DNA of 21,088 nt. It comes from Fidelibacterota bacterium (GTDB lineage: Bacteria > Fidelibacterota > Marinisomatia > Marinisomatales > TCS56). The DNA is taken from contig JBDRBK010000007.1 of NCBI GenBank assembly GCA_043822705.1, positions 1 to 21,088 of the forward strand, in the 5' to 3' direction. The notes beneath the pieces were generated by a model. It saw nothing but the letters and a program-made list of their open reading frames with translations. It searched no databases and was not told the DNA's origin. Of the stretch, positions 7,015-19,945 are shown one piece after another. Every line of letters begins with the position of its first letter. Position 1 is the stretch's first letter. Both the position numbers and the translations under genes were made by a program.

Positions 7015-7033
7015 GGTTTAAGGTAATCGGAAG

Positions 7034-7139
7034 ATATTTGTAAAATGGATAACGGCCCCGGTCAGTTGAAACCTGTTTCAACTTACAGCGGCGGATGGAA
7101 CTGCCACCACCCCTGGGAGCCGGATCCGTTTTATAATAT
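7034..7139 (+). other. Extended inverted-repeat / folded element between convergent genes
   Basis: Outer arms ATATTTGTAAAATGGAT..CGGCCCCGG and CTGGGAGCCG.ATCCGTTTTATAATAT pair. They enclose hairpins AGTTGAAAC-CT-GTTTCAACT and GGCGG-ATGGAA-CTGCC. Confidence 0.55.
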
Positions 7140-7146
7140 GTGAGTA

Positions 7147-8010
7147 TTACTCTAAAGCTGACAAAGAAATCTCAGCTAATATATCCATAAAAACTTTAAA
7201 ATATTCATATTGTAAATACTTAACAACGTCCTCTATAATTGAACCGGCATATAATACAGCCAAAGCACCAATTGAAATTGTGTTGGAATTGAAAATAGGT
7301 GCACAAGTATTTTTTCCACGATCTACTAATAGATTTTCTATTAAAGAATCTGAATGGGTAGATATAGACAAAGCGGAAAATACTTTAACATATTGACTAC
7401 TAATACCCAATTGTTCACATATGAATTTCGTTGTTATGGGTTTATTTTGAGCACGAGCAATATTTGAATAAATAGACCAAGCCCAATGGTTGCTTTTTCC
7501 ATTATTATAATTCGCCTTTACGTTTTCATATTCTTCATTTGCTTTCTTTACCCTATGTAATGGGTAAGTACTTTCGAATTGCTCGAGTGATATTTTCTGG
7601 CTCTCTAATAATTCTAAGTTCTTATCTAATTGCTTTTTTCGAGTGATATACTTGAAATCGTACCATAATGGTATTCTATCCTCGACATCTTTTTCTAAGA
7701 TAACCTTCACATCAACATATATTTCAAATAATGATCTTAACAAAATCGAAGCTTCAATTATCAGGCCATTGAATAAACAATGATAGATACCAAAATGGGA
7801 GAGTGCGGTTTTAGCATATAAAATTGCGATTGGAGTTTTTGCTTTTTCAAGATCAAGTACATGTTGATCATCTACTAAAAAATTGAAAAGTATATATAGC
7901 TTATACATATTGCTAAATAGTCGATCGTAACAACTGCGTCTTTCTTTTAGGTAACCCTCAAAAATTGTTACAGTTTCTTTTTCATAGGCTTCGAATTTTT
8001 CAACTAACAT
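7147..8010 (-). CDS. DUF5677 / HEPN-like alpha-helical protein, AT-rich, probably horizontally acquired
   Basis: 287 aa. A..LLRSLFE and Y....LS...H motifs resemble DUF5677. A sampled 60-nt line had 18 G+C (30%), against clearly GC-rich flanks. Confidence 0.65.
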   Translation of the reverse strand: MLVEKFEAYEKETVTIFEGYLKERRSCYDRLFSNMYKLYILFNFLVDDQHVLDLEKAKTPIAILYAKTALSHFGIYHCLFNGLIIEASILLRSLFEIYVDVKVILEKDVEDRIPLWYDFKYITRKKQLDKNLELLESQKISLEQFESTYPLHRVKKANEEYENVKANYNNGKSNHWAWSIYSNIARAQNKPITTKFICEQLGISSQYVKVFSALSISTHSDSLIENLLVDRGKNTCAPIFNSNTISIGALAVLYAGSIIEDVVKYLQYEYFKVFMDILAEISLSALE

Positions 8011-8170
8011 ATCTATCTCGGTATATTATCTTGATAATTATTTATTAATTTATGTGATACTGTGGTGTAAATCAACCGGTGCGGAACCGGTTGTGCACCA
8101 GCCGATACAAGCAGGATATCAACCTATGGGGGTATCATGCTGCATTCAACCGAAACAGGAGCTTGAGATA

Positions 8171-8362
8171 ATGCCGGGCGACAATACGATCGGGACCCGG
8201 CTGGACGATACGCTGGGCGAAACGGGTTACAAGGAGAATGTGCTGGCGATTCTGACCGCCCTGGGTGTGGGCGACAACGGCACGGCGGATGAGATCGGCC
8301 GGCTGCGGGAAGGGGTGAAAGCGGCGGCGACGCTGCTGGAGATTGCACTGAACGAAACTTGA
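8171..8362 (+). CDS. Small hypothetical protein (63 aa, MPGDNTIGTRLDD...LEIALNET)
   Basis: ATG at 8171 preceded by AGGAG. Strong G/C bias at third codon positions from this ATG onward. Followed directly by a palindrome. Confidence 0.6.
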   Translation: MPGDNTIGTRLDDTLGETGYKENVLAILTALGVGDNGTADEIGRLREGVKAAATLLEIALNET

Positions 8363-8366
8363 AACA

Positions 8367-8395
8367 GCGCCCCCTCAATTGAGGGGGCGCCCTAC
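8367..8395 (-). repeat. Perfect 24-bp palindrome with GTAG foot (REP-like); may act as terminator between convergent genes
   Basis: GCGCCCCCTCAATTGAGGGGGCGC at 8367-8390 is a perfect palindrome. The minus strand reads GTAG-G followed by the palindrome. Confidence 0.55.
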
Positions 8396-8417
8396 TGGTT
8401 CATTGCCTTGCTCTATA

Positions 8418-8645
8418 TTAATGGCATCCGCTTGTGCTTGTGCACTGGCATCGGTTTCCCGCCGCCGTTAATGCTATAAGTTTTGTAGCCCCAGAAAATT
8501 CTGGTGGACTCACTCCGGCAGCACCAAAAGACCGTGTTTCCACATGGCAATCGTGGCACAATACCTTTGCATTCCCACTTCTGTTACCGCCTGCCCGGTT
8601 AATATGATGAACCTCTAAATTAGTAGTTCGTGTACATCTACTCAT
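8418..8645 (-). CDS. Small HNH endonuclease-like Zn-finger protein (apparently circularly permuted)
   Basis: LEVHH...GGN...N...LCHDCH is an HNH core. Strong AGGAGG RBS 4 nt upstream of the ATG. The C-terminus is FSGATK..AL..AGNRCQC....CH. Confidence 0.75.
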   Translation of the reverse strand: MSRCTRTTNLEVHHINRAGGNRSGNAKVLCHDCHVETRSFGAAGVSPPEFSGATKLIALTAAGNRCQCTSTSGCH

Positions 8646-8675
8646 TTGACCTCCTGTTTTAAAATGCGCGGAATA

Positions 8676-9188
8676 TTAATCTGCGCTTTCTGGTGTAAGA
8701 TACCCGGCCAGCATCAGCGCCCCACCGACGACCATGCCGGCGTAATGTAATTTGTAGATCCGGATGCCGTTGTCGTAAAAAACCTCGGCTTCCTCCAGGC
8801 CGCAATCATCACATTCACGACTGATATTCCAATAACCCAAAGCGCCGGAGGCGATGATAAATCCTGTTCCGGCACGAAGCAAGTCATCGCGTGTATAGTG
8901 GAATTTCGGTGGTGTGGTAGATTTGACCGGCCGTATTGGTTCAGACAGCGTGTTGACATTATAATCAATGGCTAATGGATTTCCCTGCAGATCCCGGATT
9001 TCGGCTATAGAAATATATGACAGCACTTGCAGCCGGCCGGTTACCGGCAGCTTATAATAGACGATCGTATCATGTACGCCAAGCAGGTCGGCTTTGATCG
9101 GCTGGCCGTGTTTAGGTATGATTATGACCGGCTCGGCTATAGCGGCCGAGACGCAGAGCAAAGCTAAAAACAGTCGATTAAATGTCAT
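8676..9188 (-). CDS. Hypothetical exported/membrane protein
   Basis: Start is probably ATG at 9188 (GGAGGTAAA RBS). Signal peptide MTFNRLFLALLCVSAAIA. Two C-terminal hydrophobic segments flank a CDDC motif. Confidence 0.7.
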   Translation of the reverse strand: MTFNRLFLALLCVSAAIAEPVIIIPKHGQPIKADLLGVHDTIVYYKLPVTGRLQVLSYISIAEIRDLQGNPLAIDYNVNTLSEPIRPVKSTTPPKFHYTRDDLLRAGTGFIIASGALGYWNISRECDDCGLEEAEVFYDNGIRIYKLHYAGMVVGGALMLAGYLTPESAD

Positions 9189-9310
9189 TTTACCTCCCAA
9201 GTAAACTGGTATTAGTGGGATATTAAAACCGGATTAATTATTAATCAATAACTATGATTGTCTGTTGTATTTATGGAAAAAAGTCTCATTTAATTTGCGC
9301 GTTGATAGCC

Positions 9311-9330
9311 AATGTGACCTCCTTCACATT
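9311..9330. promoter_or_regulatory. CRP/FNR-family (or Rex-like) binding site
   Basis: AATGTGA-CCTCCT-TCACATT is a perfect TGTGA-N6-TCACA with extended symmetry, in an AT-rich divergent intergenic region. Confidence 0.6.
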
Positions 9331-9390
9331 CTGAAATTCTTACGCATTCCCGGAACATTACCTGTTGTGCCGTGTTGAAATCCACTTTTA

Positions 9391-9408
9391 ACTTACCGAC
9401 CGGTAAGT
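9391..9408. promoter_or_regulatory. TetR-type operator palindrome
   Basis: ACTTACCG-AC-CGGTAAGT has perfect 8-bp arms and ends 8 nt before the tetR start. It overlaps a candidate -10 (TAACTT 9389-9394) with -35 TTGTGC at 9365-9370. Confidence 0.72.
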
Positions 9409-9416
9409 AAACAGGA

Positions 9417-12578: not shown

Positions 12579-15500
12579 ATGATTATATCCAAGATAGCTA
12601 TTCGTCGCAGCGTCACATTCACGATGCTGTATCTGATTGCGATCGGGTTCGGGTTATTCGGTTTGTCCAGCCTCAAGCTCGATTTGTATCCCAACATAAC
12701 CTTTCCGGTGATCGGAATAATCACCCAGTACGAGGGCGTCGGCCCGGAGGATATTGAGAATGTTCTGACCCGGCCGCTGGAGCAGACGGTGGTTTCCGTC
12801 GAGAATGTCAAGAAAATCACCTCGACTTCCAAGGTCGGCACGTCGATCATCATCATGGAGTTCGAATGGGGCTCCGACATGGATCAGGCCGAGATCAATG
12901 TGCGCAAGATGATCGATTTCGTGCGCGATTACCTGCCGTCACAGGCTTCCGATCCGATTACTTTTGCCTTCAACCCGTCGATGCAGCCGATTCAGTATCT
13001 GACGGTCAGTTCCGAGCAGTTGGGAATGGCCGAGCTGCGCCGGGTCGTGGATGAGCAGATCACGCCGCGCCTGGAACGGATCAACGGCGTCGCGGCCGCC
13101 GGTATTCAGGGCGGGCTCGAACGTCAGATTCAGGTGCTGGTGAATCCCCATGAACTGGCCTCCCAGGGATTGTCGCTGCAGCAACTGATTCAGGTCCTGC
13201 GCATGGAAAACCTCCAGATCCCCGGAGGCCTGATCGACGAACAGAACAAGGAATTTGCCGTCAAGACCTACGGTGAGTTTACCAGTGTCGGGCAGATCGA
13301 AAATACGGTAGTCGGCTACAAAGCCGGTGTGCCGATCTATCTGAAAAATGTCGCCCGGGTATCCGACGGTTTCAAGGAACAGCGGGAAATCATCCGCAAT
13401 AACGGCCGGTCGGCCTTGATGCTGTTCATTCAGAAACAGGCCGATGCCAACACGGTCCAGACCAGCCGGGCGGTGAATGAGGCGCTGCCGGGTATCCTGG
13501 AAAAAGTCGGCCAGTCGGTGGAAGTCTCTACTCTAATCGACTTTGCCGATTTTATTACACGCTCGCTGAATAATCTGAGGACCACCGCCCTGCAGGCCTT
13601 TGTGCTGGCCTTCCTGGTCCTGCTGTTCTTCCTGCGCAATATCCGCAGTTCGCTGATCGTGGCCGTATCGATTCCGGTCTCGGTCATCGTAACCTTCTTT
13701 GTCATGGATCAGGGCGGTCTGACCCTGAATGTAATTTCCATGGCCGGTCTGGCGCTGGCGATCGGCATGCTGGTTGATAATGCCATCGTGGTGCTGGAAA
13801 ATATTTTCCGGCGCAAGGAAAAGGGCATGGAAGTAAAGGAAGCGGCCTATGAGGGTACCAAACAGGTCTCGATGGCGATTATCGCCTCGACGCTGACGAC
13901 GCTGGCGGTTTTCGTGCCGATCCTGTTTGTTCCCGGTATTGCCGGTATCATGTTCAATGACATGTCGGTGACGATCGTATTCTCGCTGACCACATCGTTG
14001 CTGGTGGCACTGACCCTGATTCCGCTGCTGGCCTCGCGCTTCCTGCAAGCGGGGAAGACGGAAGCCAAAAACCGCGTTTCACAGGCGATCGGTCGATTTC
14101 TGGCCGGAGTAGAGCGTAATTATATCAGGACGCTGGATTTCTTCCTGATCCACAAGAAGACCCTGTTTGCCATAATAACCGGATTATTCATCATCACCGT
14201 GATCCTGGCCGGAAAAATCGGCGGTGAATTCATGGGCCGGACCGACCAGTCCTTTGTCAGTATGAATATCGAACGGGAAAGCGGTGCCTCACTGACGGCG
14301 ACCAATGAAACCTTTCTCGCCCTGGAAGAGATAACCCGGAATGATGTCCCGGAGGCCACCAATATCTATTCCAATTTCGGCACCGGCGAGGGGATCGGCG
14401 CCATGTTCGGCAGTACCGGCTCCAACGCCGGGCAGATCATGATATCACTGCCCGACGTGAAGGATCGCGACCGTTCCCAATTCGAGATTCAGGACAAACT
14501 GCGTGAAAATTTCGCCCGGATTCCCGGAGCCAAAATCACCTTCGAGGATAACAGCGGCTTCATGGGTGCCGCCGGTGATGTGGTGGTCAAAATATTCGGT
14601 TTCGACCGCAACGCGGCCGCCGCTCTGGGCGACCAGGTCGCCGAGGTCATGGGTGCGGTGGACGGCGTAGTCGATATCCAGAAGAGCTATAGCTCACCCC
14701 AGCCCGAGTACCAGATTTACCTGAACCGAGACCGAATTTCGTCCATGGGACTCAGTGTCACCATGGTGGCCCAGACGGTGGAAGCCGGGATCAAGGGTAC
14801 CCTGGCCACTCAGTACCGTGAAGGCGGCAAGGAATACGAGGTTTTGGTGCGTTTCGACGATGTCTATCGTGATTCACGGGCGGACCTGGAAAATATCTAT
14901 GTCACGACCCCCATGGGTGAGCAGGTGCCGTTGATCAACCTGGCGGAAATTGTTACCGGCCGCGGCGCCAACAAGATTAATCGTGAAGACCAGGACCGGG
15001 TTATTACCGTGAGCTGCATGGTCAGCGGGCGAGACCTGCGTAGCGTCACCAACGATATTCTGGAAGGTTTGAACAGGCTGACTTTCCCCCCGGACTTCCG
15101 CTGGGAAATCGGCGGCACGGCCGAGGATATGCAGGAATCATTCATGTACCTGGGACTGGCGTTGCTGGCGGCCATCCTGCTGGTCTACATGGTAATGGCG
15201 TCCCAGTTTGAGTCGCTGCTCAATCCGTTTATTATTCTATTCACGATCCCCCTGGCCTTTATTGGTGTGATCTTCGGGTTGTTTGTCTCTGGTACAACCC
15301 TCTCGATCACCGCCATGATCGGCGGCATGCTACTGATCGGTATAGTGGTCAATAACGGTATCGTTCTGGTCGATTATATTAATCAGCTCCGGTTCATCAA
15401 CGGTTACAAGCTTTGGGAAGCGGTAGTCCGCGGCGGCCGCCGGCGGATGCGACCGATCCTGATGACGGCGTTGACGACGATATTTTCGATGACGCCGATG

Positions 15501-15716
15501 GCCCTGGAACTTGGCTCGGGTGCCGAAATCTGGGCGCCGATGGCACGGGCGGTAATCGGCGGTTTGACGGCATCGACCTTCTTCACGCTGGTGCTGATTC
15601 CGGTGCTGTATTTCACGATCGAGCGCTGGAAACTCAATCGGGCGATCCGCAAGGGCCGGATCGAGGCCCAGGAAACCGGCCGGCCGGAAGGAGCCAACGC
15701 GCTAGAACTGAACTGA
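12579..15716 (+). CDS. RND efflux transporter permease (AcrB/AcrD/AcrF family)
   Basis: 1045 aa. GLALAIGMLVDNAIVVLENI in TM4, GIVVNNGIVLVD in TM10, RPILMTALTT in TM11. Confidence 0.96.
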   Translation: MIISKIAIRRSVTFTMLYLIAIGFGLFGLSSLKLDLYPNITFPVIGIITQYEGVGPEDIENVLTRPLEQTVVSVENVKKITSTSKVGTSIIIMEFEWGSDMDQAEINVRKMIDFVRDYLPSQASDPITFAFNPSMQPIQYLTVSSEQLGMAELRRVVDEQITPRLERINGVAAAGIQGGLERQIQVLVNPHELASQGLSLQQLIQVLRMENLQIPGGLIDEQNKEFAVKTYGEFTSVGQIENTVVGYKAGVPIYLKNVARVSDGFKEQREIIRNNGRSALMLFIQKQADANTVQTSRAVNEALPGILEKVGQSVEVSTLIDFADFITRSLNNLRTTALQAFVLAFLVLLFFLRNIRSSLIVAVSIPVSVIVTFFVMDQGGLTLNVISMAGLALAIGMLVDNAIVVLENIFRRKEKGMEVKEAAYEGTKQVSMAIIASTLTTLAVFVPILFVPGIAGIMFNDMSVTIVFSLTTSLLVALTLIPLLASRFLQAGKTEAKNRVSQAIGRFLAGVERNYIRTLDFFLIHKKTLFAIITGLFIITVILAGKIGGEFMGRTDQSFVSMNIERESGASLTATNETFLALEEITRNDVPEATNIYSNFGTGEGIGAMFGSTGSNAGQIMISLPDVKDRDRSQFEIQDKLRENFARIPGAKITFEDNSGFMGAAGDVVVKIFGFDRNAAAALGDQVAEVMGAVDGVVDIQKSYSSPQPEYQIYLNRDRISSMGLSVTMVAQTVEAGIKGTLATQYREGGKEYEVLVRFDDVYRDSRADLENIYVTTPMGEQVPLINLAEIVTGRGANKINREDQDRVITVSCMVSGRDLRSVTNDILEGLNRLTFPPDFRWEIGGTAEDMQESFMYLGLALLAAILLVYMVMASQFESLLNPFIILFTIPLAFIGVIFGLFVSGTTLSITAMIGGMLLIGIVVNNGIVLVDYINQLRFINGYKLWEAVVRGGRRRMRPILMTALTTIFSMTPMALELGSGAEIWAPMARAVIGGLTASTFFTLVLIPVLYFTIERWKLNRAIRKGRIEAQETGRPEGANALELN

Positions 15717-15737: not shown

Positions 15738-15771
15738 AAGGGACTGGTTCCGGTCGAATCAGTCCCTTTTT
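15738..15771 (+). terminator. Rho-independent terminator of the efflux operon
   Basis: AAGGGACTGGTTC-CGGTC-GAATCAGTCCCTT followed by a T-run, 21 nt after the RND stop. Confidence 0.85.
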
Positions 15772-15889
15772 ATTTATCGCTGCGAAACACTTAAATTGCC
15801 ACTGCTATCCGGATGCGCAAACCGGATTGATCATCCTGATTCAGGGTTATGAAAAAATAATCTTATAATACGGGGATACAACTGCTGCC

Positions 15890-17818
15890 ATGCTTGATTT
15901 TACCTTTAGGCCCTTCAATGAAATGACTCCCGCCGACTATGCTAAAGTCGGATTCAAGGGGGGACTGGAAATTCACCAGCAATTGTTGACGGAAAAGAAG
16001 CTGTTCTGCCGCTGCCCGGCCGGGAAGTACAGCTCCGAGTATGATGCCGAAATTCTGCGCCATATGCGCCCGACCCTGTCGGAGTTGGGGGAATATGACG
16101 GTACGGCCCTGATGGAATTCAAAACCCGAAAGGATATTATCTATAATATCCGCCATGAAACCGTCTGCACCTACGAAATGGATGATACGCCGCCATTCGA
16201 ATTGAATGAACAGGCCCTGGATATCGCCCTCGAAATCGGTTTGTTGTACCGCAGCAACATCGTCGACGAAATCCATATTGCCCGCAAACAGTATCTGGAC
16301 GGCAGCATTCCCACCGGTTTTCAGCGCACGGCGATAATCAGTGTGGGCGGTGAATTACAGTTCAAGGATCGGAAAATCGGCATCACCCAGTTGGCCATCG
16401 AAGAGGATGCCTGCCGCGAAGTCAGCGATATCGGGCACACGCGGACCTACCTGACCGACCGGCTGGGGATGCCGCTGATCGAGACCGTCACCGATCCCGA
16501 TATGCGCACGCCCCAGGAACTGGCCGAAGTCGGCAATATCTTCCGTTACCTGACGCGCAGCACGGGCAAGGTCCGCACCGGCTACGGCGCCGCCCGCCAG
16601 GATGTGAACGTCAGCGTGGACGGCGGCACCCGGATCGAAATCAAAGGCGTGTCGCGGATTCGGGCGATACCGCTGCTGGCCTTCAACGAAGCGCAACGTC
16701 AATGGAATCTGCTGCGGATTCGCGAAGAATTGTGGCAGCGCGGCATCACCGGCAAATCGTTCCAGTCGGTCGTCGAGGATCTGACCCGGGTACTGCGCCG
16801 GACGCAGTTCGTCCCGATCAAGAATGCCCTGGCGCAGGATGTGGTCATCAAGGGTGTGTTGCTGCGGGGCTTCCGTGGAATTCTGCGCCGGCCGACCCAG
16901 ACCGATACGACTTTTTCCCAGGAAATCGCAGATCGCGTGCGTGTCGTCGCCTGCCTGACGTCACTGCCCAATATCATTCATTCCGACAGTCCCAGCGAAA
17001 CGCTTACCACTGCCGAGTGGCAGCGGTTAAAAAAGAACCTGCGGGCCCGGGAGGAGGATACGGTGGTGGTCGTCTGGGGGTCGCCCCAGGATGCCCAGAC
17101 CGGCGCCGAGGAGATCGTGATCAGGGCGCGAGAGGCCACGGTCGGGATTCCATCCGAAACCCGCCAGGCCCATGCCGATGGCACCAACGGCTTCGAACGA
17201 ATCCTGCCGGGACCCAATCGCATGTATCCCGATACCGATCTGCCGCCCAAGCGGATCAGTCCCGAACGCCTCGGGCAAATCGCTGACGGCCTGAACGAAA
17301 ATTACTGGGAACGGGTCCTGCGCTACCGCCGGCTGCAACTGCCCGATGATGTGGTCAGTCCGCTGGCACTGTCGGCTTATTTCCCGCTGTTCGACGAAAT
17401 CCTGGCTGCCGGCCGGATTGAACCGCGGCTCGCGGCGCTGGCCCTGGTACAGTTTCCCAAGCGGATCGCCCGCTCGGGCCTGGACATAACACAATTGACG
17501 CCGGCGCTGTTGCGGGATATTTTCCGGTTGCTGGCGGAAGGCCGGATAGTGAAGGACGGACTGCTGACGGTAATGTTGCAGACCTGCCTGCGTGGCCGGC
17601 CGGCTCTGGATGAACTGCCGTCGCCCTGCGCGACAGCGGAACTGGATCAGGTGATCGCGGTCGCCCGTAGCGAGACCGATTCACTGGAACTGGATAATGA
17701 CGAACAACGCGAACTGGTACTGATGGGAATCATCATGAATCGTTTGCGCGGCCGGGTCAACGGCGCGGAGGTTCGGCAGCGTCTGGCAACAAGCGGGAGG
17801 ACAGGTAATAATGGCTGA
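15890..17818 (+). CDS. gatE: Glu-tRNA(Gln) amidotransferase subunit E (archaeal type)
   Basis: 642 aa with GLEIHQQL, KLFC, DGS.PTGFQRT, EEDA, DRLG.PLIE, RQDVNVS, EIKGV and PG..RMYP.TD. It carries the GatE-specific AspRS-like insertion (I.HSD) and the C-terminal LMG..M..LRGR..G tail. These features separate it from GatB. Confidence 0.93.
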   Translation: MLDFTFRPFNEMTPADYAKVGFKGGLEIHQQLLTEKKLFCRCPAGKYSSEYDAEILRHMRPTLSELGEYDGTALMEFKTRKDIIYNIRHETVCTYEMDDTPPFELNEQALDIALEIGLLYRSNIVDEIHIARKQYLDGSIPTGFQRTAIISVGGELQFKDRKIGITQLAIEEDACREVSDIGHTRTYLTDRLGMPLIETVTDPDMRTPQELAEVGNIFRYLTRSTGKVRTGYGAARQDVNVSVDGGTRIEIKGVSRIRAIPLLAFNEAQRQWNLLRIREELWQRGITGKSFQSVVEDLTRVLRRTQFVPIKNALAQDVVIKGVLLRGFRGILRRPTQTDTTFSQEIADRVRVVACLTSLPNIIHSDSPSETLTTAEWQRLKKNLRAREEDTVVVVWGSPQDAQTGAEEIVIRAREATVGIPSETRQAHADGTNGFERILPGPNRMYPDTDLPPKRISPERLGQIADGLNENYWERVLRYRRLQLPDDVVSPLALSAYFPLFDEILAAGRIEPRLAALALVQFPKRIARSGLDITQLTPALLRDIFRLLAEGRIVKDGLLTVMLQTCLRGRPALDELPSPCATAELDQVIAVARSETDSLELDNDEQRELVLMGIIMNRLRGRVNGAEVRQRLATSGRTGNNG

Positions 17819-19193
17819 TCAATTTAAAGGTTACCGCGGAGCGGCTCTCGGTACGTTGCGTAATTTCAATACGGAAGTCTGGAGCGATGTGGAAATCACG
17901 ACCGGCAAAGGGCGTTTTACCGGAATCGTTTTGCCGCGTTCGGAGACCGCCGATGACCGGCATATCGTCTTAAAATTGCGGTCAGGTTATAATGTGGGGA
18001 TCGCAGCAGACACGATCACGGCGATTCGAGTCGATGGGCGTAGGGAAGCCAACTACAAGATACCGGAAAAAGCCTTCCCCTATGATCCGCGCAAGCCCAA
18101 CGTGAAACTGCTGGGCACCGGCGGTACGATTGCCAGCCGGCTGGATTACCGGACGGGGGCGGTGATTCCGGCCTTTACCCCCGGCGAGCTATACGGCTCC
18201 GTACCGGAGTTGGCGGATATCTGCAACCTGGATACGGAAAAGCTGTACGGTGTATTCAGCGAGAATATGGGACCGGAGCAGTGGATCGGCACGGCCCAGG
18301 CGGTGGGCCGGGAAATCGCCAATGGCGCCCAGGGGATCGTGATCGGCCACGGTACCGATACCATGCACCACACCGCCGCCTGTCTCTCGTTTATGGTGCA
18401 GAATTCGCCGGTGCCGATCGTGATGGTCGGCTCCCAGCGCTCCAGCGACCGGCCGTCCTCCGACGCCGCCCTGAATTTGATTCACAGTGTCAAGACCGCC
18501 GCCGAAAGCGATATTGCCGAGGTGCTGGTCTGCATGTTCGGGCCCACATCCGATGAATATGGTCTACTGCATCGCGGCACCCGCGTCCGGAAAATGCACT
18601 CCAGCTATCGTTCCACCTTTCGAACCATCGGTGATATTCCGGTGGCGATGGTGGATCGCAACAAAATCACACCGCTACGCAACGATTACCGCAAGCGCCG
18701 CAGCGACCGCGACGTGATTATCAATACGGCCTTTGAAGAGAAGGTCAGCATCGTTTATTACTATCCCAACATGAAGCCGGATATCATTGATTCCCTGATC
18801 GATAACGGCTACCGGGGAATAGTAATCGCCGGGACCGGACTGGGGCATGTCAACAAGCCGCTTTATCCGGCTTTGCAGCGCGCCCGGGAAAAGAATGTCG
18901 CCGTCTACATGACGGTCCAGACCCTGTGGGGCTATGTTCAGATGTATGTTTACGATACCGGCCGGGACATCATGGAATTGGGCGTGCACCCCTCGGCCAA
19001 CATGCTGCCCGAGGTAGCATACGTGAAACTGGGCTGGGCTTTGGGACAGACCAGCGACCTGGAGCAGGTGCGGGAAATAATGCTGACGCCGATCGTCAGC
19101 GAGATTACCGAACGGGAGCCCAGCAACGGTTATCTGATATTCCAGGGTGGCATCGCCGAAGTGGAGGAATTCATCTCCCGGATCAGGAAATAA
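17811..19193 (+). CDS. gatD: Glu-tRNA(Gln) amidotransferase subunit D (asparaginase-like, archaeal type)
   Basis: 460 aa. GatD-specific N-terminal domain (IVLKL.SGYNVG), GTGGTIASR.DY.TGAV, HGTDT, GSQRSSDRPSSD, RKMHSS.R, GTGLGH, MLPEVAYVKL.W.LG. Overlaps gatE by 8 nt. Confidence 0.95.
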   Translation: MADQFKGYRGAALGTLRNFNTEVWSDVEITTGKGRFTGIVLPRSETADDRHIVLKLRSGYNVGIAADTITAIRVDGRREANYKIPEKAFPYDPRKPNVKLLGTGGTIASRLDYRTGAVIPAFTPGELYGSVPELADICNLDTEKLYGVFSENMGPEQWIGTAQAVGREIANGAQGIVIGHGTDTMHHTAACLSFMVQNSPVPIVMVGSQRSSDRPSSDAALNLIHSVKTAAESDIAEVLVCMFGPTSDEYGLLHRGTRVRKMHSSYRSTFRTIGDIPVAMVDRNKITPLRNDYRKRRSDRDVIINTAFEEKVSIVYYYPNMKPDIIDSLIDNGYRGIVIAGTGLGHVNKPLYPALQRAREKNVAVYMTVQTLWGYVQMYVYDTGRDIMELGVHPSANMLPEVAYVKLGWALGQTSDLEQVREIMLTPIVSEITEREPSNGYLIFQGGIAEVEEFISRIRK

Positions 19194-19258: not shown

Positions 19259-19287
19259 TTGTCTGAAAAACCGCGACAATGTAGTTT
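19259..19287 (+). promoter_or_regulatory. Candidate sigma70 promoter
   Basis: TTGTCT (19259-19264), 17-bp spacer, TAGTTT (19282-19287), with an AT-rich upstream stretch. Confidence 0.45.
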
Positions 19288-19293
19288 CCATCT

Positions 19294-19396
19294 ACGACTC
19301 CAATGTAAGAATTACGGTGAGTAATTTCTCGACTGGAGGGGTTGGCAAGTGAATACCTATAAAAAGGCTCTGAGTTGGCGCTGGGAGCCTTTTTTT
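19294..19396 (+). ncRNA. Candidate orphan small RNA (~100 nt)
   Basis: Lies between the candidate promoter and a terminator. Contains the hairpin CTCCA..AGAATTAC-GGTGA-GTAATTTCT..TGGAG. No credible ORF. Confidence 0.35.
19361..19396 (+). terminator. Rho-independent terminator (possibly bidirectional)
   Basis: AAAAAGGCTC...GAGCCTTTTTTT stem with a 7-T tract and a 5' A tract. Confidence 0.8.
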
Positions 19397-19576
19397 ATTT
19401 CAGGACTCGACGGTAGTCGCAATAAGGATCTGCCGGGCGGCGAATCGACGGCGGACCAGCGCTGTTCCGGTTCGGTAATTGATCCGAGATTTATCCGGTA
19501 TCGAAAGTCGCTGAACGGCCGTTATCCGGGAACATTATAGTTACGGATTGTGTAAATTAGACCAGCTATTTGACAT

Positions 19577-19926
19577 GGGGGCGACCGGTTTCGACGGGAT
19601 AGAAAAGCTGTTAAACTGCAGGCGGAGGTCCAGGCATCTCCCAAATCACCTGGAAACACAATAAGTGCCGATTACGGCTACATGGCTGCCGCTTAACTGA
19701 CGGCGACCCGTCCTGTGCAGGATTTGTCTGTGGTCTTGCATAAGGGCGACACATACACGGGCTGGTTTGTTTAGCTGCTCATGCTAAACGAATGAGACAC
19801 TACTGAGCTGGTCCTGACAACTGGGGTCACCGGAAGTTGTCGGGATGAGAAATATCCGGAAGACTAAGCTTGTAGACGTTTTTCAGGGTTCTATTTCGGA
19901 CGGGAGTTCGACTCTCCCCGCCTCCA
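19577..19926 (+). ncRNA. ssrA: tmRNA (transfer-messenger RNA)
   Basis: 5' end GGGGGCGACCGGTTTCGAC; 3' end GACGGGAGTTCGACTCTCCCCGCCTCCA (T-arm, acceptor stem with G3-U Ala determinant). PK1-like pairings GGAG/CTCC and CCAGG/CCTGG. Tag ORF 19667-19696 follows ATAAGT and encodes ADYGYMAAA*. Confidence 0.96.
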
Positions 19927-19945
19927 CTGAAAGAATTGATTATAT

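What the first reader, a model, noticed from the sequence alone, without database searches (positions are those of the whole stretch)
15890..19193. Intact archaeal-type GatDE amidotransferase operon in a bacterial chromosome
Seen: two full-length, overlapping ORFs with GatE motifs (including the AspRS-like insert) and GatD motifs (N-terminal domain, catalytic GGT, HGTDT and RKMH). They are flanked by bacteria-specific genes, TolC/MFP/RND upstream and tmRNA downstream. Their GC-rich codon style looks like that of the neighbours. Established: GatDE is the classic archaea-specific route to Gln-tRNA(Gln), while bacteria use GatCAB or GlnRS. Inference: an old archaea-to-bacteria transfer gave this lineage a third, archaeal way of making Gln-tRNA(Gln), or GatDE has been repurposed. 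I cannot tell from sequence alone whether such bacterial homologues are already described.
Basis: partly seen in the sequence, partly recalled or inferred. Interest (0 to 1): 0.85.

Follow-up and report, generated by a model that had tools for sequence, protein, structure and literature searches.

The report
Bacterial GatDE operon, accessory cassette
This groundwater-type bacterium really carries an intact copy of GatDE, the tRNA-linked glutamine-making enzyme that reviews call archaea-only, but it is one of many hundreds of bacterial copies, the cell already has the direct enzymes, and close relatives carry an asparagine-synthesis gene in exactly the same spot.

Summary
gatE (15890-17818) and gatD (17811-19193) are intact, overlap by 8 nt and pass NCBIfam's GatE/GatD equivalog cut-offs; GatB models fail. 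It is not a chimera: two other genomes of the same family hold RND pump-gatE-gatD-tmRNA in the same order, and the genes' GC3 matches each host.

It is not lineage-specific. A species-level genome collection holds at least 569 bacterial-type copies, and this scan has noted bacterial GatDE before in at least 16 other genomes. In my trees the bacterial-type GatE forms one clade nested in archaeal GatE, next to an Asgard-labelled sequence.

The genome has GlnRS, AsnRS, one GluRS, one AspRS and AsnB, and no GatCAB, so GatDE is surplus. Of 50 other GatDE-bearing bacterial genomes, 44 have GlnRS and 45 AsnRS.

New here: in three sister genomes the same slot holds asnA instead. Phylum-wide, however, GatDE and AsnA are not associated (25% vs 24%).

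Best reading: a working, dispensable Glu-tRNA(Gln) amidotransferase whose physiological role is open. The reviews I read (2008, 2022) still call GatDE archaeal. New member of a known kind; moderate interest.

The parts
12579..15716 (+). RND efflux pump gene, the conserved left flank of the variable slot
   Evidence: ACR_tran 865 bits. It is 84-87% identical in five family genomes, whichever gene fills the slot.
15738..15778 (+). Terminator-like hairpin after the RND gene; gatED is therefore probably its own transcription unit
   Evidence: 13-pair stem followed by a T run. It is shared with the G006 gatED version but not alignable in the asnA versions.
15890..17818 (+). gatE: kinase/amidotransferase subunit with cradle domain, AspRS-like insertion and fast-evolving C-terminal YqeY-like tail (about residues 481-642)
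   Evidence: NF003107 532.6 bits against cut-off 456. End-to-end alignment to 1ZQ1_C and 2D6F_C. 34 core residues shared with GatB and archaeal GatE are kept. Non-synonymous divergence in the tail is 0.63-0.68, against 0.08-0.11 in the cradle.
17811..19193 (+). gatD: asparaginase-type ammonia-releasing subunit, start overlapping the gatE stop by 8 nt
   Evidence: NF003217 518.5 bits against cut-off 310. T106, T182, D183 and K261 align with the GGT Thr, HGTDT Thr-Asp and RKMH Lys of 2D6F_A. It is 86-87% identical to the copies in G006 and G001.
19278..19397 (+). Conserved non-coding block (candidate small RNA with terminator hairpin) forming the right boundary of the variable slot
   Evidence: Alignable in 6 of 6 family genomes, whether the slot holds gatED or asnA. 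No Rfam match.
19577..19927 (+). tmRNA gene (tag ADYGYMAAA), the conserved right flank
   Evidence: ARAGORN; Rfam RF00023 183.9 bits. The same tag occurs in G001, G002, G004, G005 and G006.

Best explanation
The window holds a genuine, intact, long-resident two-gene operon, gatE then gatD. It encodes a GatDE-type tRNA-dependent amidotransferase of the large bacterial GatDE clade.

Mechanism, inferred from the archaeal enzyme: GatD hydrolyses Gln or Asn to ammonia using its Thr nucleophile and Thr-Asp-Lys triad. GatE binds the acceptor end of a mischarged tRNA, phosphorylates the side-chain carboxylate with ATP and amidates it.

The most likely substrate is Glu-tRNA(Gln), giving Gln-tRNA(Gln). 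It would be read here through the bacterial U1-A72 pair rather than the archaeal A1-U72.

In this organism the pathway is accessory rather than essential. The genome has GlnRS and AsnRS, and sister genomes do without GatDE.

Shown: gene identity, intact catalytic residues, chromosomal residence, clade membership and dispensability. Inferred: activity, substrate and physiological role.

The confidence of 0.55 is for the whole statement, including the Glu-tRNA(Gln) substrate. That this is a real, resident GatDE operon I put at about 0.95.
For: Identity:
- Both proteins pass curated equivalog cut-offs for GatE and GatD.
- Both align end to end with the solved archaeal GatE and GatD chains.
- Foldseek ranks 1ZQ1_C and 2D6F first, from a low-confidence model.
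- Of 41 alignment columns that separate archaeal GatE from GatB, the bacterial-type clade follows archaeal GatE in 27, GatB in 2 and neither in 12. It keeps 34 residues shared by all three groups.

Residence:
- G006 holds TGase-ABC-TetR-OEP-MFP-RND-gatE-gatD-tmRNA, and G001 holds gatE-gatD-tmRNA.
- GC3 is 0.72/0.71 here and 0.50/0.46 in the lower-GC G006, each matching its host.
- DNA contigs from two runs of one other study, from a roughly 93%-identical relative, bridge the gatE-gatD junction, the gatD-to-intergenic junction and the intergenic-to-tmRNA junction.

Selection:
- dN is 0.08-0.11 for the cradle and 0.08-0.09 for GatD between family members.
- GatD is 75-86% identical across 72 loci from several phyla.

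Canonical role somewhere in the phylum:
- G156 (94% complete) has GatE, two GluRS-like genes, no GlnRS and no GatB.

Dispensability:
- GatE is over cut-off in 3 of 9 family genomes.
- GlnRS was found in all 8 of the 8 family genomes in the phylum sample.
Against: Nothing in the genome needs the enzyme.
- GlnRS scores 732 bits and AsnRS 484 bits. There is only one GluRS.
- That GluRS looks the same in GatDE-bearing and GatDE-lacking relatives. All five keep the Arg that aligns with the conserved Arg in the E. coli and H. pylori GluRS structures. The aligned Thermus residue, Arg358, marks discriminating enzymes, but the marker is described as phylum-dependent.
- tRNA(Gln)-CUG has the same acceptor stem and D-arm in two GatDE-bearing and two GatDE-lacking relatives.

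Archaeal GatDE reads A1-U72 (review passage), whereas both tRNA(Gln) genes here have U1-A72.

The tRNA-reading tail domain is the least constrained part. Mean pairwise identity is 0.20 in the bacterial-type clade against 0.26 in the archaeal clade, while the cradle is more conserved (0.63 against 0.51).

Among 50 other GatDE-bearing bacterial genomes, 44 have GlnRS, 45 have AsnRS and 19 also have GatB. So the enzyme is systematically redundant for known needs.

I could not show activity or expression.
Confidence: 0.55

Rival explanations
1. GatDE here amidates Asp-tRNA(Asn), giving tRNA-dependent asparagine synthesis. It would then be functionally interchangeable with AsnA, as surplus GatCAB is in Thermus, Deinococcus and Bdellovibrio.
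For: - In the same slot between the RND pump and tmRNA, three family genomes (G002, G004, G005) carry asnA instead (TIGR00669 298.7-304.1 bits, cut-off 292.8).
- Within the family, GatDE (3 genomes) and AsnA (3 genomes) are mutually exclusive.
- G001 and G006 have no AsnA and no AsnB over cut-off.
- tRNA(Asn) and tRNA(Gln) of G000 both have U1-A72, G73 and a 7-nt D-loop, while tRNA(Glu) and tRNA(Asp) differ.
- 8 of 50 other GatDE-bearing genomes show no AsnA, AsnB or GatB, among them one assembled as a single chromosome.
- There is a precedent: surplus GatCAB together with GlnRS and AsnRS (PMC4206432, abstract seen in the listing).
Against: - Phylum-wide there is no association. AsnA occurs in 8 of 32 GatE-bearing genomes (25%) and in 65 of 269 others (24%). 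In family f28, 7 of 9 GatE-bearing genomes also have AsnA.
- G000 itself has at least two AsnB-family genes over cut-off.
- 33 of 50 other GatDE-bearing genomes have an AsnB-family gene.
- 11 of 41 relatives have none of AsnA, AsnB, GatB or GatE. A GatDE-only genome is therefore not a strong argument.
- No second AspRS exists; the apparent second copy is a 90%-identical strain duplicate.
- Archaeal GatDE does not use Asp-tRNA(Asn) (review passage).
Confidence: 0.15
2. GatDE serves only one glutamine isoacceptor. tRNA(Gln)-UUG carries C3-G70 instead of the G3-C70 that GlnRS normally reads, so it would be charged by GluRS and then amidated.
For: G000 tRNA(Gln)-UUG reads U1-A72, G2-C71, C3-G70, whereas tRNA(Gln)-CUG has G3-C70. 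[quoted passage not shown] Both tRNA(Gln) genes share the D-stem 5' strand GUCU with tRNA(Glu).
Against: There is therefore no covariation test. The effect of pair 3-70 on GlnRS is known to me only from recall, for E. coli. The GluRS anticodon-side marker looks discriminating.
Confidence: 0.1
3. The enzyme has been recruited to a substrate outside ordinary translation, such as another aminoacyl-tRNA used in cell-envelope or natural-product chemistry, or it works mainly as a regulated amidase.
For: It is systematically redundant with GlnRS, AsnRS and often GatCAB. The tRNA D-loop-reading tail evolves quickly. The distribution is patchy and looks like that of an accessory gene.
Against: No conserved neighbour hints at another pathway: the largest neighbour family occurs in 6 of 80 loci. 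The catalytic cradle and GatD are under strong constraint and stay GatE-like. G156 looks like a canonical user.
Confidence: 0.1
4. Assembly or binning artefact: an archaeal fragment joined to bacterial flanks.
For: The genome is a metagenome bin with 218 contigs and 6% contamination.
Against: The same junctions occur in two other genomes of different genera, and partly in contigs of another study. Composition is host-like in each genome. The nearest GatE relatives are all in bacterial records. The duplicated marker genes are 90-96% identical strain copies, not foreign DNA.
Confidence: 0.01

Closest known systems
Archaeal GatDE (Methanothermobacter thermautotrophicus, PDB 2D6F; Pyrococcus abyssi, PDB 1ZQ1)
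   Same: Both have two subunits with the same domain order: a GatE cradle, AspRS-like insertion and YqeY-like tail, and a GatD N-domain plus asparaginase fold. The GatD Thr and Thr-Asp-Lys residues and the GatE core residues are conserved. Alignments run end to end.
   Different: Identity is only about 32-39% for GatE. The host has GlnRS and a bacterial-type GluRS. Its tRNA(Gln) has U1-A72, not A1-U72. The tail is less conserved than in the archaeal clade. The operon is dispensable within the family.
The bacterial GatDE clade annotated in MAGs of Ignavibacteria, Kapabacteria, Bacteroidota, Aminicenantes, Calditrichia, Marinimicrobia and others
   Same: GatE is 53-75% and GatD 75-86% identical. 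gatE precedes gatD in 72 of 80 loci, and the other 8 are cut by contig ends. The window falls in the same well-supported clade.
   Different: Here the operon sits in a slot that holds asnA in sister genomes. The window's GatE tail is unusually diverged even from its family copies, at 25-47% identity.
Bacterial GatCAB
   Same: It catalyses the same chemistry, and GatB and GatE are paralogous. The bacterial tRNA features it reads (U1-A72, compact D-loop; review passage) are those found on tRNA(Gln) and tRNA(Asn) here.
   Different: GatB models score 56-138 bits against cut-offs of 315-680. The ammonia donor subunit is an asparaginase homologue, not the amidase GatA. There is no GatC. No GatB or GatA was found in this genome over cut-off.
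Surplus GatCAB of Thermus, Deinococcus and Bdellovibrio (asparagine made on tRNA despite AsnRS and GlnRS)
   Same: An amidotransferase coexists with both direct synthetases (PMC4206432, abstract in the listing).
   Different: Those cases lack AsnA and AsnB and have a tRNA(Asn)-charging AspRS. Here AsnB-family genes exist, and nothing shows that the AspRS is non-discriminating.

Membership tests
GatDE (Glu-tRNA(Gln) amidotransferase, archaeal type) | GatE subunit recognised by curated equivalog models and distinct from GatB | tested here: met
   NF003107 scores 532.6 against cut-off 456, and TIGR00134 476.8 against 319.55; GatB models fall below their cut-offs. The GatE/GatB split has 100% support in both trees.
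GatDE (Glu-tRNA(Gln) amidotransferase, archaeal type) | GatD subunit: N-terminal GatD domain plus asparaginase fold, with a Thr nucleophile and a Thr-Asp-Lys triad | tested here: met
   NF003217 scores 518.5 against cut-off 310. Pfam finds GatD_N, Asparaginase and Asparaginase_C. T106, T182, D183 and K261 align to the GGT, HGTDT and RKMH residues of 2D6F_A. The roles of these residues come from the review passage.
GatDE (Glu-tRNA(Gln) amidotransferase, archaeal type) | AspRS-like insertion domain inside the GatE cradle | tested here: met
   The GatB_N match spans residues 25-459 for a 277-position model. The alignment to 1ZQ1_C and 2D6F_C is continuous through residues 285-400. That region is modelled confidently (block-mean pLDDT mostly 82-93 over residues ~281-420, with dips to 52-75), and Foldseek gives weak AspRS hits (E 5.6e-4).
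GatDE (Glu-tRNA(Gln) amidotransferase, archaeal type) | C-terminal YqeY-like tail domain that reads the tRNA D-loop | tested here: met
   PF02637 scores 27.9 bits against cut-off 27, which is marginal. The tail is modelled as helices with pLDDT about 79-92. It is, however, the fastest-evolving part.
GatDE (Glu-tRNA(Gln) amidotransferase, archaeal type) | The two genes are adjacent and the proteins form a D2E2 complex | tested here: inconclusive
   Adjacency is met, with an 8-nt overlap and gatE-gatD order in 72 of 80 related loci. Complex formation was not tested.
GatDE (Glu-tRNA(Gln) amidotransferase, archaeal type) | Physiological context: no GlnRS, a non-discriminating GluRS, and GatDE as the only route to Gln-tRNA(Gln) | tested here: not met
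   GlnRS is present at 732 bits. The single GluRS carries the Arg marker of discriminating enzymes. GlnRS is present in 44 of 50 other GatDE-bearing bacterial genomes.
GatDE (Glu-tRNA(Gln) amidotransferase, archaeal type) | Substrate tRNA(Gln) with the archaeal A1-U72 identity pair | tested here: not met
   Both tRNA(Gln) genes have U1-A72 and G73. The A1-U72 requirement comes from review passages.
GatDE (Glu-tRNA(Gln) amidotransferase, archaeal type) | ATP-dependent transamidation of Glu-tRNA(Gln) | not testable with these tools
   This needs a biochemical assay.
GatCAB | GatB, GatA and GatC subunits | tested here: not met
   In the own genome only GatE matches the GatB model, at 97.5 bits against cut-off 314.8. 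The best GatA-model match is a 564-aa amidase at 172 bits against cut-off 481. GatC was not searched.

The most novel reading that the evidence does not exclude
Bacterial GatDE is not a housekeeping route to Gln-tRNA(Gln). It is a horizontally spreading accessory module that works beside GlnRS and AsnRS on a substrate nobody has assigned to it. In this family that substrate could be Asp-tRNA(Asn), which would make it interchangeable with AsnA at one chromosomal slot. Or it could be a tRNA(Gln) isoacceptor with C3-G70 that GlnRS handles poorly.
Probability: 0.25. Interest if true: 0.75.

Novelty: new member of a known kind. Interest (0 to 1): 0.42.

Why it matters
[quoted passage not shown] Arguments about tRNA(Gln) co-evolution and about the amidotransferases of the last common ancestor rest on that claim.

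A large bacterial clade undermines it. In 40 of 50 sampled genomes the clade coexists with both GlnRS and AsnRS, which raises the question of what a surplus amidotransferase is for.

This window adds a natural experiment. Closely related genomes share the same GlnRS, GluRS and tRNA(Gln)-CUG and differ only in whether one slot holds gatED or asnA.

The window itself is an ordinary member of that clade, and annotation pipelines already name these genes.

Tried and rejected
1. GatDE/AsnA mutual exclusion as a general rule. It holds in family f1 (3 against 3) and f19 (2 against 5). It fails phylum-wide (8 of 32 against 65 of 269) and in f28, where 7 of 9 GatE-bearing genomes have AsnA.

2. A GatDE-specific GluRS. 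The GluRS of G000 and G006 (gatED) and of G002, G004 and G005 (asnA) show no systematic difference, and all keep the Arg marker. G001 gave no match with this query.

3. A second, possibly non-discriminating AspRS. The partial copy on C162 is 90% identical to the full one, and the two LysRS are 96% identical. These are strain duplicates.

4. tRNA genes next to gatED, as earlier scan notes reported elsewhere. In 60 of the 80 loci I found one tRNA-Val and no tRNA-Gln.

5. Conserved neighbours. The largest neighbour family occurs in 6 of 80 loci.

6. GluRS duplication as a sign of an indirect pathway. 43 of 50 GatDE-bearing genomes have one match, 4 have two and 3 have none. The four genomes lacking both GlnRS and GatB have one or no GluRS, which fits incompleteness.

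7. Plasmid or phage carriage. No bacterial-type GatE turned up. The plasmid collection gave one archaeal GatE at 38% identity, and otherwise GatB-type partial matches, under the hits that carry annotation. The phage collection gave only GatB-like partial matches.

8. Expression. One RNA run holds exact tmRNA (depth 366) and an RND piece, but only 35-46-nt pieces with mismatches on gatE. Nothing can be said about gatED transcription.

9. Rfam match for the conserved intergenic block: none.

10. dN/dS. Synonymous sites are saturated (dS 1.6-3.2 or undefined), so only dN is used.

11. Structure model. The mean pLDDT is 62.5 and the cradle is poorly modelled with a 10-sequence alignment. I use it only for the insertion and tail.

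12. Papers on bacterial GatDE. Four searches found none. Only Creative Commons PMC papers and bioRxiv preprints were searched, and no supplements were read.


Full report
**Observation**

They overlap by 8 nt (ATGGCTGA), with a Shine-Dalgarno-like GGGAGGA before the second start.

The first ORF passes both NCBIfam GatE equivalog models (532.6 bits against 456; 476.8 against 319.55). It fails all six GatB models. The second passes both GatD models (518.5 against 310; 516.2 against 324). It has the GatD_N, Asparaginase and Asparaginase_C domains.

Both align end to end with the solved archaeal subunits. GatE gives 332 and 321 bits to 1ZQ1_C and 2D6F_C. GatD gives 414 and 406 bits to 1ZQ1_A and 2D6F_A. 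Counting along the 2D6F_A alignment, GatD T106, T182, D183 and K261 sit on the GGT, HGTDT and RKMH residues. A review passage describes a Thr nucleophile plus a Thr-Lys-Asp triad for GatD.

The flanks are bacterial. TetR, an outer-membrane factor, a membrane-fusion protein and an RND pump lie upstream. A tmRNA lies downstream.

**Assembly and residence**

The window is a whole 21,088-base contig of a metagenome bin. The bin has 3.34 Mb in 218 contigs, with 93% completeness and 6% contamination.

Several results exclude a chimera:
- A genome of another genus of the same family (G006) holds transglutaminase-ABC-TetR-OEP-MFP-RND-gatE-gatD-tmRNA in the same order. A third genus (G001) holds gatE-gatD-tmRNA.
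- GC3 of gatE and gatD is 0.72 and 0.71 here, like the neighbours (0.66-0.75). It is 0.50 and 0.46 in the lower-GC G006. The genes have therefore taken on each host's composition.
- DNA contigs of another study hold a relative about 93% identical. They bridge the gatE-gatD junction, the end of gatD into the intergenic block, and that block into tmRNA. No listed piece bridges the RND gene to gatE.
- The bin's duplicated marker genes are 90% and 96% identical strain copies, not foreign DNA.

**How common it is**

The best 120 were all 60-68% identical. Where named, they were labelled GatE of Marinimicrobia, Bacteroidota or Kapaibacterium MAGs.

I scanned one genome per species (185,579 species) with two motifs of the bacterial clade. 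The 80 loci kept were all from MAG records. They were labelled Ignavibacteria, Kapabacteria, Bacteroidota, Aminicenantes, Calditrichia, Rhodothermaceae, Chloroflexota, Planctomycetaceae and others.

In 72 of the 80 loci gatD follows gatE directly. The other 8 end at a contig edge.

In the window's own phylum, probably Marinimicrobia judging by the label of the closest named homologues, GatE was found in 32 of 301 sampled genomes. These lie in 5 of 32 families. In its family GatE is over cut-off in 3 of 9 genomes.

This scan's notebook already holds follow-ups on bacterial GatDE in at least 16 other genomes. I treated those notes as leads and repeated the tests.

**Phylogeny**

I built two trees:
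- FastTree: 138 rows, made of the window, 19 named bacterial loci, 113 full-length representatives from a 50%-clustered library, and 5 GatB from relatives.
- IQ-TREE quick (LG+G4): 50 of those rows.

Both separate GatE from GatB with 100% support. Both recover one bacterial-type clade, with 100% support and a stem of 0.35-0.37. It holds the window and all named bacterial rows.

Its sister is a representative whose cluster is labelled Heimdallarchaeota (support 96 and 92). A Thorarchaeota-labelled sequence lies nearby. Thermoprotei- and Parvarchaeota-labelled sequences sit in the large remaining clade.

Three caveats apply. Most representatives carry no name, so I have not shown that every member of the bacterial-type clade is bacterial. 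Support values are SH-like only. The root rests on a long GatB branch.

Within the clade, rows labelled with different phyla are interleaved. Together with the patchy distribution, this points to spread between bacterial phyla after one ancient entry from archaea.

**What the cell needs**

The own genome has the following:
- GlnRS (732 bits)
- AsnRS (484 bits)
- one GluRS
- one AspRS type
- at least two AsnB-family genes over cut-off
- no AsnA
- no GatB or GatA over cut-off

GatDE is therefore surplus for charging tRNA.

The same holds broadly.

| Gene | Genomes with it (of 50) |
|---|---|
| GlnRS | 44 |
| AsnRS | 45, plus 2 fragmentary |
| GlnRS and AsnRS both | 40 |
| GatB | 19, plus 1 partial |
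| AsnB-family gene | 33 |
| AsnA | 2 |
| exactly one GluRS match | 43 |

In the phylum sample GlnRS is more frequent with GatE (27 of 32) than without it (148 of 269).

One genome looks like a canonical user. G156 is 94% complete. It has GatE and two GluRS-like genes, and neither GlnRS nor GatB was found. It also has AsnRS and AsnA.

**The slot swap**

Three family genomes without GatDE (G002, G004, G005) keep the same flanks. Between the RND pump and tmRNA they carry a 376-aa ORF (385-386 aa read stop to stop) that passes the AsnA equivalog model (298.7-304.1 bits against 292.8).

The exchanged segment runs from just after the RND stop codon to a conserved block of about 120 nt upstream of tmRNA. 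That block is alignable in all six genomes.

Flank identities follow taxonomy. G006 and G002 belong to the same genus and share 91.5% identity in the RND protein, yet the slot differs between them. At least one replacement therefore happened within a genus, most simply by recombination in the conserved flanks.

This suggested that GatDE might stand in for AsnA by making asparagine on tRNA. The test did not support a general rule. AsnA occurs in 25% of GatE-bearing and 24% of other genomes of the phylum. In one family 7 of 9 GatE-bearing genomes have both. The swap remains a real local fact, but it may only mark a recombination-prone slot.

**tRNA and synthetase clues**

Both tRNA(Gln) genes and tRNA(Asn) have U1-A72, G73 and 7-nt D-loops. 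tRNA(Glu) and tRNA(Asp) begin with G1 and have longer D-loops.

Review passages say that archaeal GatDE reads A1-U72 and D-loop positions 19 and 20, whereas bacterial GatCAB reads U1-A72 and rejects an extra D-loop base. A bacterial GatDE must therefore have changed its acceptor-stem reading. By these features alone it could not tell tRNA(Gln) from tRNA(Asn). That last step is inference.

GluRS and tRNA(Gln)-CUG do not differ between GatDE-bearing and GatDE-lacking relatives.

tRNA(Gln)-UUG of G000 has C3-G70. A 2014 survey calls G3-C70 absolutely conserved in GlnRS-containing genomes. I could not test this lead in relatives.

**Domain-wise evolution**

Between the three family copies GatD is 86-89% identical but GatE only 67-72%. 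The difference lies in the C-terminal tail: 25-47% identity there against 75-93% in most of the N-terminal cradle.

Non-synonymous divergence between the three family copies:

| Region | dN |
|---|---|
| GatE cradle | 0.08-0.11 |
| GatD | 0.08-0.09 |
| GatE insertion | 0.19-0.24 |
| GatE tail | 0.63-0.68 |

Synonymous sites are saturated.

Across the trees' rows, mean pairwise identity for cradle and tail is 0.63 and 0.20 in the bacterial-type clade. It is 0.51 and 0.26 in the archaeal clade.

The tail is still there. It gives a marginal Pfam hit of 27.9 against 27 and is modelled as confident helices. The catalytic core is GatE-like and complete.

**Conclusion**

I file this as a genuine member of the GatDE family by sequence and architecture. 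It lacks the archaeal physiological context, because GlnRS is present and tRNA(Gln) has U1-A72.

The most likely chemistry is the canonical amidation of Glu-tRNA(Gln) as a dispensable second route. The rivals are asparagine synthesis on tRNA, service of a single isoacceptor, and a role outside translation. Telling them apart needs the assays listed under next steps.

**Literature seen**
- PMC2330236: passages only. It calls GatDE 'an archaeal signature protein'.
- PMC9499178: passages only. [quoted passage not shown]
- PMC3927822 and PMC12088422: passages.
- PMC2777447: passages, nothing useful.
- PMC13047044: GatDE appears only in the reference list.
- PMC4206432: abstract in a search listing.

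The roles of E. coli GlnRS identity elements and the Thermus/Deinococcus precedent beyond that abstract are recalled, not checked. No supplementary files were read.

Noticed in passing
window 19278-19397 (+); also L031:727-851 (-), L032:3551-3675, L038:15025-15150, L039:3146-3270 (-), L040:761-885 (-): A conserved block of about 120 nt lies between the variable slot and tmRNA. It has a promoter-like TTGTG...TAATGT lead-in, an internal hairpin and a terminator hairpin followed by a T run. One terminator pair switches C-G to U-A in 3 of 6 genomes. It is a candidate small RNA or tmRNA leader, and it has no Rfam match.
   Followed up: partly
window 7015-9416 (DUF5677 gene 7147-8010, -; ORF 8676-9200, -): A 2.4-kb insert lies between the ABC transporter gene and TetR. 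It contains a DUF5677 gene with GC 0.31 and GC3 0.24, against a genome median GC3 of 0.64. In G002 those two genes lie only about 180 nt apart (about 115-140 nt in G004 and G005; about 1.4 kb in G006), so this looks like a recent foreign insertion specific to this genome.
   Followed up: partly
G000:C33:33648-33719 (-), outside the window: tRNA(Gln)-UUG has C3-G70 in its acceptor stem, whereas tRNA(Gln)-CUG has G3-C70. A published survey calls G3-C70 invariant in GlnRS-containing bacteria. I could not compare relatives.
   Followed up: no
G000:C94:4884-16074, outside the window: GlnRS, tRNA(Gln)-CUG, tRNA(Glu)-CUC and GluRS lie within 11 kb on one contig. In many of the 50 other GatDE-bearing genomes the GluRS and GlnRS genes are directly adjacent, for example G057, G070, G080, G047 and G089, judging by the coordinates.
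   Followed up: no
G156 (same phylum, family f32): This 94%-complete genome has GatE, two GluRS-like genes (475 and 476 aa), AsnRS and AsnA, but neither GlnRS nor GatB was found. It is the best candidate in the sample for a bacterium that depends on GatDE for Gln-tRNA(Gln).
   Followed up: partly
L041-L120 (80 related loci): GatD is 75-86% identical to the window's copy across loci labelled with several phyla, while GatE is only 53-70%. That is unusually high conservation for the ammonia-releasing subunit.
   Followed up: partly
G000:C162:2-607 and C176:2246-3988; C26:209-1546 and C110:23671-24999: The partial second AspRS and the second LysRS are 90% and 96% identical to the first copies. The bin's 6% contamination therefore looks like a co-binned close strain.
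   Followed up: yes
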